From contig CAXHJY010000860.1 of NCBI GenBank assembly GCA_964016885.1, positions 248,001-312,000 of the forward strand: a DNA stretch of 64,000 nt. The letters run 5' to 3'. The translations under genes were made by a program, and so were the position numbers. Positions 742-1,630 of this stretch are shown here, piece by piece. The notes below the pieces were generated by a model, which was not told where the DNA came from, searched no databases, and saw only the letters and a list, made by a program, of their open reading frames with translations. The stretch comes from Eledone cirrhosa. Taxonomy: Eukaryota. Every line of letters begins with the position of its first letter. Position 1 is the stretch's first letter.

Positions 742-1163
742 CCTTGTCTGGCTTTCTGGAGAATAGAGGAAAGGTGTTTCCTCAAAAACCAGTATGACTC
801 TAAAAACCGGTTTGTCTGTGTGTTTACATACAGAATAGCTGGCCACTCACAGTAAAGTGACCAGTGAAAAAACTTGGTACATCTACATATGTATACGTGT
901 GTGTATTCATATACATACTAGTATTTCAGTATACATATATGGATGTACATCTTTAACTTAATTGTTTAAGCGTCAGTCATACAAAAGTGAGTTACAAACG
1001 AAACGAAGTTTAATATCGTTTCGTTATTTGTTTTTATCGTCTCCGTTGAACCGGTACTTACTCACACTCTATGCAAATTAGTCTGCCCACTACTAATTTT
1101 CATAGAAAAAGCACATAACGATATGTGCTTTTACGATTCTCTAGAGAGGCCGGAAGATAGGTA

Positions 1164-1208
1164 AATATTGCTGATGAGTTGTAACAACAACGAAACTAGT
1201 TCAATATT
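1164..1208 (+). ncRNA. Minimal type I hammerhead ribozyme
   Basis: Identical to 697-741, shifted by 467. Confidence 0.85.
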
Positions 1209-1630
1209 CCTTGTCTGGCTTTCTGGAGAATAGAGGAAAGGTGTTTCCTCAAAAACCAGTATGACTCTAAAAACCGGTTTGTCTGTGTGTTTACATACAG
1301 AATAGCTGGGTGCTCACAGTAAAGCAACCAGTGAAAAAACTTGGTACATCTACATATGTATACGTGTGTGTATTCATATACATACTAGTATTTCAGTATA
1401 CATATATGGATGTACATCTTTAACTTAATTGTTTAAGCGTCAGACATACAAAAGTGAGTTACAAACGAAACGAAGTTTAATTTCGTTTCGTTATTTGTTT
1501 TTATCGTCTCCGTTGAACCGGTACTAACTCACACTCTATGCAAATTAGTCTGCCCACTACTAATTTTCATAGAAAAAGCATATAACGATATGTGCTTTTA
1601 CGATTCTCTAGAGAGGCCGGAAGATAGGTA

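What the first reader, a model, noticed from the sequence alone, without database searches (positions are those of the whole stretch)
839..1331. Compensatory double substitutions between the two unit variants preserve a hairpin
Seen: variant A CTGGCCACT-cacagtaa-AGTGACCAG (839-864) versus variant B CTGGGTGCT-cacagtaa-AGCAACCAG (1306-1331). Two adjacent pairs switch together (C-G to T-A and A-T to G-C), the third change lies in the mismatched position, and the loop is identical. The rest of the 467 bp differs only at a few scattered sites. Both variants also occur in the inverted arm (B at about 45-70, A at about 512-537). Inference: selection on RNA structure outside the ribozyme, supporting a functional structured RNA. 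The interleaving of A and B units suggests two templates or a higher-order unit.
Basis: seen in the sequence. Interest (0 to 1): 0.75.

Follow-up and report, generated by a model that had tools for sequence, protein, structure and literature searches.

The report
Borrowed hairpin patch in a retrozyme
The paired letter changes are real and mark subfamilies of an abundant jumping RNA-like repeat whose folded shape is likely kept by selection, but in this copy the odd hairpin is a short patch that matches another subfamily and was likely pasted in, not evolved on the spot.

Summary
The 467-bp unit is an animal non-LTR retrozyme with a minimal type I hammerhead motif. It has at least 5,761 + 1,736 unit copies in this 3-Gb genome, in head-to-head arrays with Penelope-like unequal ends in (AT)n.

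Hairpin B belongs to a subfamily about 93% identical to A (173 units). The window's B units carry only that subfamily's five hairpin letters on an A backbone, a 17-90 nt patch found only here, once per arm. A third patch, from another subfamily, lies in the last unit. So A/B interleaving is mosaicism, not two whole templates.

Across subfamilies the covariation is real. Half-changed pairs are rare (46 vs 792; 11 vs 173), a U·G lineage is basal to the U-A clade, and pair-breaking changes are depleted on the ribozyme strand (9 vs 22 expected) but not the other.

Caveats: only two double changes in this hairpin; in context it folds poorly on the ribozyme strand and well on the opposite one; no RNA data. 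The scan noted this family before on other DNA (e1-8803865). Known kind, modest new detail.

The parts
1..579 (-). Left arm of the head-to-head array: unit positions 227-467, then 1-398. It runs 60 bp beyond the window start and ends in (AT)n at the short fixed end. Unit position = window - 570 for the first + unit.
578..2438 (+). Right arm: four tandem 467-bp units (578-1037 lacking the first 7 nt, 1038-1504, 1505-1971, 1972-2438), ending at the long fixed end before an AT run
696..742 (+). Minimal type I hammerhead motif (CTGATGA 704-710, stem II, GAAAC, 2-bp stem III, predicted cut after 734 at GUU). Repeated at 1163-1209, 1630-1676, 2097-2143 and, on the minus strand, 167-213.
   Evidence: read from the sequence against the recalled hammerhead consensus; core intact in 134 of 136 loci; no Rfam hit at gathering score
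839..864 (+). Hairpin variant A (CCA/TG subfamily); also 1773-1798 and 2240-2265
1306..1331 (+). Hairpin variant B: five letters (1310-1312, 1325, 1326) of the GTG/CA subfamily on an A backbone; the patch is at least 1310-1326 and at most about 1247-1333
45..70 (-). Second copy of the same B patch, at the mirror position in the left arm
512..537 (-). Variant A with a private change that breaks an outer pair
2295..2314 (+). Second foreign patch: two letters (unit positions 324C, 343G) shared with 19 other loci of the ACA-type lineages
1015..1114 (+). Locus-private marker pair (445A at 1015, 77C at 1114), repeated 934 bp later (1949, 2048) and absent from the left arm
   Evidence: the 445A pattern has only these 2 hits in the genome
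2370..2438 (+). About 70-nt 'tail' between the two fixed ends (unit positions 399-467), present at the right end only

Best explanation
The two hairpin versions are the marks of two genome-wide subfamilies of a 467-bp hammerhead-motif repeat, whose folded RNA is likely under selection, and the B units of this array are A-type units carrying a short B-subfamily patch that was likely copied in by gene conversion. Shown: subfamily structure, patch limits, uniqueness of the mosaic, array layout, depletion of pair-breaking changes. Inferred life cycle: arrays are transcribed, cut by the hammerhead into monomers or circles, and reverse-transcribed by a Penelope-like RT/endonuclease from two fixed internal start sites into (AT)n, so only RNAs that keep their fold found new subfamilies. 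Inferred history of the hairpin: a perfect 9-bp stem opened at one pair (A-U to A·A); C-G then became U-A through a U·G lineage that still survives; A-U became G-C on the branch to B. Inferred for this locus: after insertion a B-subfamily copy donated 17-90 nt to one unit, the patch passed to the mirror unit of the inverted arm, and the right arm was reshuffled internally. Confidence by step: family identity 0.95; structure selected on the ribozyme strand 0.85; this hairpin's covariation due to base-pair selection 0.7; B units are a patch 0.97; patch made at DNA level after insertion 0.6.
For: All 40 other B loci sampled are 88-95% identical to unit A, whereas the window's B units are 98-99% identical and match B only at positions 273-275, 288, 289; they are A-type at 209 and at 297-313. 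B hairpin plus A flank occurs exactly twice in the genome, both here. Similar patches occur at L080, L092, L146 and in the window's last unit (96 loci with 3 or more units examined). Genome counts within the 5,761 pattern hits: T-A 619+173 vs T·G 29 and C·A 17; G-C 173 vs G·T 7 and A·C 4. In a tree of 98 loci the three sampled U·G loci branch below the TA/TA and GTG/CA clades, and the C·A loci form a side branch. With the structure fixed from one older subfamily alone, the + strand shows 4 double-kept changes (null 0.75; 16 of 2000) and 9 single breaks (null 22.3; 0 of 2000); the - strand shows 19 breaks (null 22.5; 357 of 2000). Terminal branches show no depletion (52 vs 58.9). 82 of 95 head-to-head arrays pair one long with one short end and none has two long ends; 77 of 95 have AT runs on both sides. 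Three loci carry A-to-G clusters on the + strand; one has 43 changes, 42 of them after U or A, which points to an RNA intermediate.
Against: Copy counts reflect a few founder lineages: this hairpin has only two double changes, and the same stem also took three lineage-level breaks (290, 289 in the C·A clade, 272). In full-length folds the outer four pairs are out-competed on the + strand (p <= 0.05 in six younger loci) and the inner helix is weak (0.01-0.8), while the hairpin is strong on the - strand. A first test using only the A consensus fold was not significant (p 0.06). No half-changed lineage was found for the A-U to G-C step on the TA/TA background. Cross-arm shared variants in 45 loci are not mostly in mirror rank, so arm-to-arm conversion is not shown to be general. 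The tree ignores recombination, is midpoint-rooted, and uses loci chosen by hairpin class. No RNA data, no cleavage assay, and no partner element identified.
Confidence: 0.7

Rival explanations
1. The mosaic arose during reverse transcription: the RT jumped between different ribozyme-cut monomers, and one RNA species was already an A/B recombinant, used once in each arm.
For: With monomers bounded at the hammerhead cut, the window reads cleanly as M1,M2,M1,M4 on the right and Ma,M2 on the left, with 0 incompatible marker pairs vs 5 and 10 for two other cut points. In L056 an edited tract stops at position 157, just before the cut at 164, and the next 222 adenines are unedited.
Against: Any cut between 78 and 272 fits the window equally well. 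Over 13 loci the best cut point was 267 (17 conflicts) rather than 164 (23). No source locus exists in the assembly for M2 or for the M1 marker. L163 shows multi-unit blocks duplicated across the cut site.
Confidence: 0.3
2. This hairpin matters on the opposite strand (cDNA or antisense RNA), or on both strands, rather than in the ribozyme-strand RNA.
For: The minus-strand hairpin is -14.7 kcal/mol for A and -10.7 for B, vs about -8 on plus. Pair probabilities are near 1 on minus in context. C273·A290 of the large A subfamily and the C·A clade are G·U pairs on minus.
Against: The lineage that led to the compensated pair is U·G on plus. The older 290T subfamily forms the full hairpin on plus (p about 1). 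Family-wide constraint is plus-strand.
Confidence: 0.2
3. DNA-level quasi-palindrome template switching produced the paired changes without selection.
For: The site is an imperfect inverted repeat. The A-U to G-C change has no surviving intermediate lineage in the sample. A perfect-stem class of 1,736 pattern hits exists.
Against: The perfect stem sits at the base of the tree and was lost, not gained. The open 273/290 position next to both changed pairs stays open in the A, ACA, TA/TA and B subfamilies. The C-G to U-A change passed through separate branches. Fourteen one-sided changes are tolerated through G·U only on plus.
Confidence: 0.1
4. The patch is an assembly or polishing artefact on a small unplaced contig.
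For: No unitig in three public runs of one sample bridged the B hairpin and the A flank.
Against: The patch uses a rare allele class (173 of more than 7,000 units) at mirror positions, and comparable patches occur on large contigs. The runs need not be this individual, and the tool warns that holes prove nothing.
Confidence: 0.06
5. A and B are two whole-unit templates or a higher-order A-B repeat that diverged by in-place compensation.
For: Two private markers do show a 934-bp period in the right arm.
Against: The B patch does not follow that period; all five letters are those of an existing subfamily; the rest of the unit is A-type.
Confidence: 0.03

Closest known systems
Metazoan non-LTR retrozymes (PMC7229834: term passages, section 14 and Discussion read; bioRxiv 10.64898/2026.07.22.740005: parts 1-3 of 5 read)
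   Same: Non-coding tandem units with one type I hammerhead each, GC under 45%, thousands of copies, highly self-paired predicted RNA, Penelope-like elements in the same genome. The length lies within the 51-972 bp range of the preprint.
   Different: 467 nt is above the 170-400 nt of the 2020 paper. The parts read do not describe head-to-head arrays with two fixed ends, subfamily covariation, wobble intermediates or inter-subfamily patches ('inverted' and 'covariation': 0 hits in PMC7229834). Expression, cleavage and circles are shown there but untested here.
Endonuclease-bearing Penelope-like elements (PMC8557442: passages read; PMC11167929: parts 1-2 of 4 read)
   Same: Inverted 5'-truncated copy, one-sided tail equal to the distance between two internal RT start sites, (TA)n targets, hammerhead in the repeat.
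   Different: No ORF; the tail is about 70 nt rather than 30-40; arms are long homopolymers of one unit. No autonomous partner sharing the unit was found.
Compensatory evolution through G·U intermediates in rRNA, and short gene-conversion patches between SINE subfamilies (both recalled, no call)
   Same: A Watson-Crick to G·U to Watson-Crick path; mosaic copies carrying diagnostic sites of another subfamily.
   Different: Here the intermediate survives as a small transposing lineage inside one genome.

Membership tests
Non-LTR retrozyme | Tandem units of a few hundred bp, each with a type I hammerhead motif | tested here: met
   467-bp period; motif in every full unit; core intact in 134 of 136 loci. 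Rfam gathering score not reached, as the motif is minimal; identified by eye from the recalled consensus.
Non-LTR retrozyme | Non-coding, no LTR architecture, dispersed at many loci | tested here: met
   Thousands of pattern hits on many contigs; arrays consist of the unit alone. No ORF scan or PBS/PPT search was run on the unit itself.
Non-LTR retrozyme | Highly self-paired predicted RNA | tested here: met
   Circular MFE -150 to -159 kcal/mol on +, z -8 to -15 against 25 shuffles each.
Non-LTR retrozyme | Expressed as linear and circular monomer RNA | tested here: inconclusive
   No RNA holder listed. Indirect only: A-to-G clusters on the + strand, repeated in successive units in L085 and L158.
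Non-LTR retrozyme | Ribozyme self-cleaves | not testable with these tools
   Needs in vitro transcription; the 2026 preprint found 8 of 9 predicted elements inactive.
Penelope-like insertion | Inverted arrangement with one-sided tail and microsatellite target | tested here: met
   82 of 95 arrays long+short ends; 77 of 95 AT-flanked on both sides.
Penelope-like element (autonomous) | ORF with RT and GIY-YIG endonuclease | tested here: not met
   Arrays hold only the unit. One B array abuts a truncated Penelope-like ORF (L074/L130; motifs recognised from memory, Pfam only RVT_1 at E 0.084), whose downstream region lacks the unit.
Non-autonomous partner of a specific PLE | Shared pLTR or 3' end with an autonomous element | tested here: inconclusive
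   Nine loci with Penelope-like ORFs nearby were extended; none carried the unit as its own terminal repeat. No genome-wide partner search was run.

The most novel reading that the evidence does not exclude
Each array is a record of a mixed RNA pool: the Penelope-type RT jumps between ribozyme-cut monomers, and the pool holds recombinant or mutated RNAs that no genomic locus encodes. That would mean RNA-level recombination or replication of an animal retrozyme, with structure-preserving selection acting on the RNA population as in viroids.
Probability: 0.15. Interest if true: 0.75.

Novelty: new member of a known kind. Interest (0 to 1): 0.36.

Why it matters
Animal retrozymes are assumed to depend on their fold, but the papers read give predictions rather than evolutionary evidence. 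This young family supplies within-genome covariation, a surviving wobble intermediate and editing scars, and so names specific helices (142-153, 200-209, 274-289, 275-288 in unit positions) to mutate and rescue. It also shows that apparent 'compensatory' differences between neighbouring repeat units can be imported patches. The element class is known and the scan has reported this family before, so the gain is incremental.

Tried and rejected
Rfam scan of the window: 0 hits.

The first in-script comparison of the inverted arm was out of register and its R columns are meaningless; it was redone by BLAST.

ADAR editing as a general source of the G·U pattern was rejected. The A-to-G excess (61:30 private; 107:69) vanishes when three edited loci are dropped (61:68). 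The L056 edits are not enriched in predicted monomer stems (28/15 vs 42/19), so they may come from long inverted-arm duplexes and do not prove the monomer fold.

A genome-wide hammerhead-cut monomer frame was inconclusive. Mirror-rank sharing between arms was inconclusive.

Sequencing runs: no RNA holder listed. Contigs of four runs were laid; they gave the lead to the 290T subfamily, and one 497-nt loop unitig that cannot tell a circle from a tandem. No unitig bridging the patch was found, which is not evidence of absence.

The partner search among nearby ORFs found none.

The alifold structure is fitted to its alignment and was not used as the test.

Literature searches listed no paper on covariation or conversion in retrozymes; listings only, and no supplements were read, so supplementary alignments may hold such data. 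Look-ups of earlier findings near the place, by sequence and by words returned nothing.

Full report
Observation. The sequence shows both hairpins where stated. A is at 839-864, 1773-1798 and 2240-2265; B is at 1306-1331 and, reversed, at 45-70. The reversed copy at 512-537 is A with one further change that breaks an outer pair. The first two + units differ at three sites outside the hairpin. I use unit positions (window minus 570 for the first + unit), in which the hairpin is 269-294, the changed pairs are 274-289 and 275-288, and the open position is 273/290.

What the unit is. The window lies in a 3.0-Gb, microsatellite-rich genome. Each unit has a minimal type I hammerhead motif (696-742; predicted cut after 734), recognised from the recalled consensus; Rfam gave no hit. 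The core is intact in 134 of 136 loci that cover it. A hairpin pattern finds 5,761 units, and a second pattern for the perfect-stem class finds 1,736; both fix their flanks, so they are lower bounds. I analysed 148 loci chosen from these hit lists by hairpin class, not at random. Of 95 complete head-to-head arrays, 82 pair a long end (463-467) with a short end (388-400), none has two long ends, and 77 have AT runs on both sides. The window's array is of this type. This matches the inverted layout, one-sided tail and (TA)n target of Penelope-like elements (PMC8557442, passages) and their two internal RT start sites (PMC11167929, parts 1-2 of 4). The unit fits animal non-LTR retrozymes (PMC7229834; bioRxiv 10.64898/2026.07.22.740005).

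B is a subfamily, and the window's B is a patch. B has 173 units genome-wide. In all 40 other B loci sampled the hairpin-bearing units are 88-95% identical to unit A, with many further diagnostic sites. The window's two B units have the B letters at 273, 274, 275, 288 and 289 only, and are A-type at 209 and at 297-313, so the patch is 17 to about 90 nt. B hairpin plus A flank occurs twice in the genome, both times here. The last unit carries a second patch (324C, 343G). L080, L092 and L146 are similar mosaics among 96 loci with three or more units; L078, L083, L156 and L162 look like nested insertions of different subfamilies.

Is the covariation real? At 274-289, T-A units number 619 + 173, against 29 T·G in 18 loci and 17 C·A in 11 loci. 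At 275-288, G-C units number 173 against 7 G·T and 4 A·C; one array adds 13 A·G. Purines at 274 and pyrimidines at 275 were not counted. Copies are not events, so I built a tree of 98 loci with full units. The perfect stem is basal; 290 opened once; 274 and 289 changed on successive branches, with three sampled U·G loci below the TA/TA and B clades; 275 and 288 changed together on a 12-change branch; the C·A loci are a side branch. Three permutation tests agree. Internal branches break 9 pairs vs 24.8 expected while terminal branches do not differ from the null (structure from the same alignment). Scoring each branch on its parent's fold gives 13 vs 26.9 on + and 20 vs 25.7 on -. A fold taken from one older subfamily alone gives 4 double-kept changes vs 0.75 (16 of 2000) and 9 breaks vs 22.3 (0 of 2000) on +, and 19 vs 22.5 on -. 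Indel-prone columns (295-303, 375-392 and the unit ends) were left out of all three. An earlier, smaller test on the A consensus fold was not significant (p 0.06). The other double changes are 142-153 in hammerhead stem II and 200-209.

Limits for this hairpin. It holds only two double changes and also took lineage-level breaks. In full circular folds of six younger loci the outer pairs lose to a 237-242/267-272 helix on + and the inner helix has p 0.01-0.8, whereas the - strand mostly forms the hairpin; the 290T subfamily forms it on +. The inner helix is compatible with the competing one and is the part that covariation supports. Quasi-palindrome repair would close 273/290 and leave no intermediate; the tree shows the opposite, though it cannot be excluded for 275-288.

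How the interleaving arose. Two private markers (445A, 77C) repeat at 934 bp in the right arm and are absent from the left; 445A occurs nowhere else. The B patch ignores that period and sits in the second unit from the centre on both arms. Conversion from a B locus followed by transfer between the inverted arms explains this without missing source loci (inference, about 0.6). The alternative is RT jumping between cut monomers: the window parses without conflict in that frame, and in L056 a 43-site A-to-G tract with an ADAR-like neighbour preference (preference recalled) ends just before the cut site. However, the frame is not singled out over 13 loci, and L085 and L158 show the same edits in successive units, as expected from a circle. 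No run on record as RNA was listed.

Verdict. The feature is real and the family-level inference of structural selection is supported. The local reading, two templates or a higher-order unit, is replaced by a short inter-subfamily patch. The element is a new member of a known kind, already noted by this scan on other DNA. Interest 0.36.

Noticed in passing
L056:1146-2175 (G000:C3:245517500-245521800): 43 A-to-G changes with no other change inside the tract, from unit position 323 to 157 of the next unit, ending just before the hammerhead cut; a foreign 600-bp purine-rich stretch lies between the two arms.
   Followed up: partly
L085, L158: The same A-to-G edits recur in successive units, as if one edited circle was copied more than once.
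   Followed up: partly
L074:8452-9901 and L130: A 15-unit B array is joined head-to-head, without spacer, to a 5'-truncated Penelope-like RT ORF with a C-terminal endonuclease-like region; possibly a chimeric insertion pointing to the helper element.
   Followed up: partly
unit position 164 (window 734): A and B subfamilies have GUU at the predicted cut, while 19 or more loci of other lineages have the canonical GUC.
   Followed up: no
G000:C1:95942514-95966214 and C1:5738196-5752574: Single arms of about 50 and 30 units; L148, L163 and L184 show local periods of 3 to 6 units in their variants.
   Followed up: partly
runs X4, X5, X6 (organisms B, C, D as coded): Near-identical pieces of the unit at low depth in runs labelled as three other organisms; X4 has a 497-nt self-looping unitig. 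Kind of run unknown.
   Followed up: no
window 2900-3740 (minus strand): Fragment of a LINE-like reverse transcriptase frame (290 aa stop-free) just downstream of the array.
   Followed up: no
window 24902-26970, 21215-21731, 42176-42683: Other tandem repeats with periods 173 (12 copies, 96%), 256 and 250 bp; not examined.
   Followed up: no
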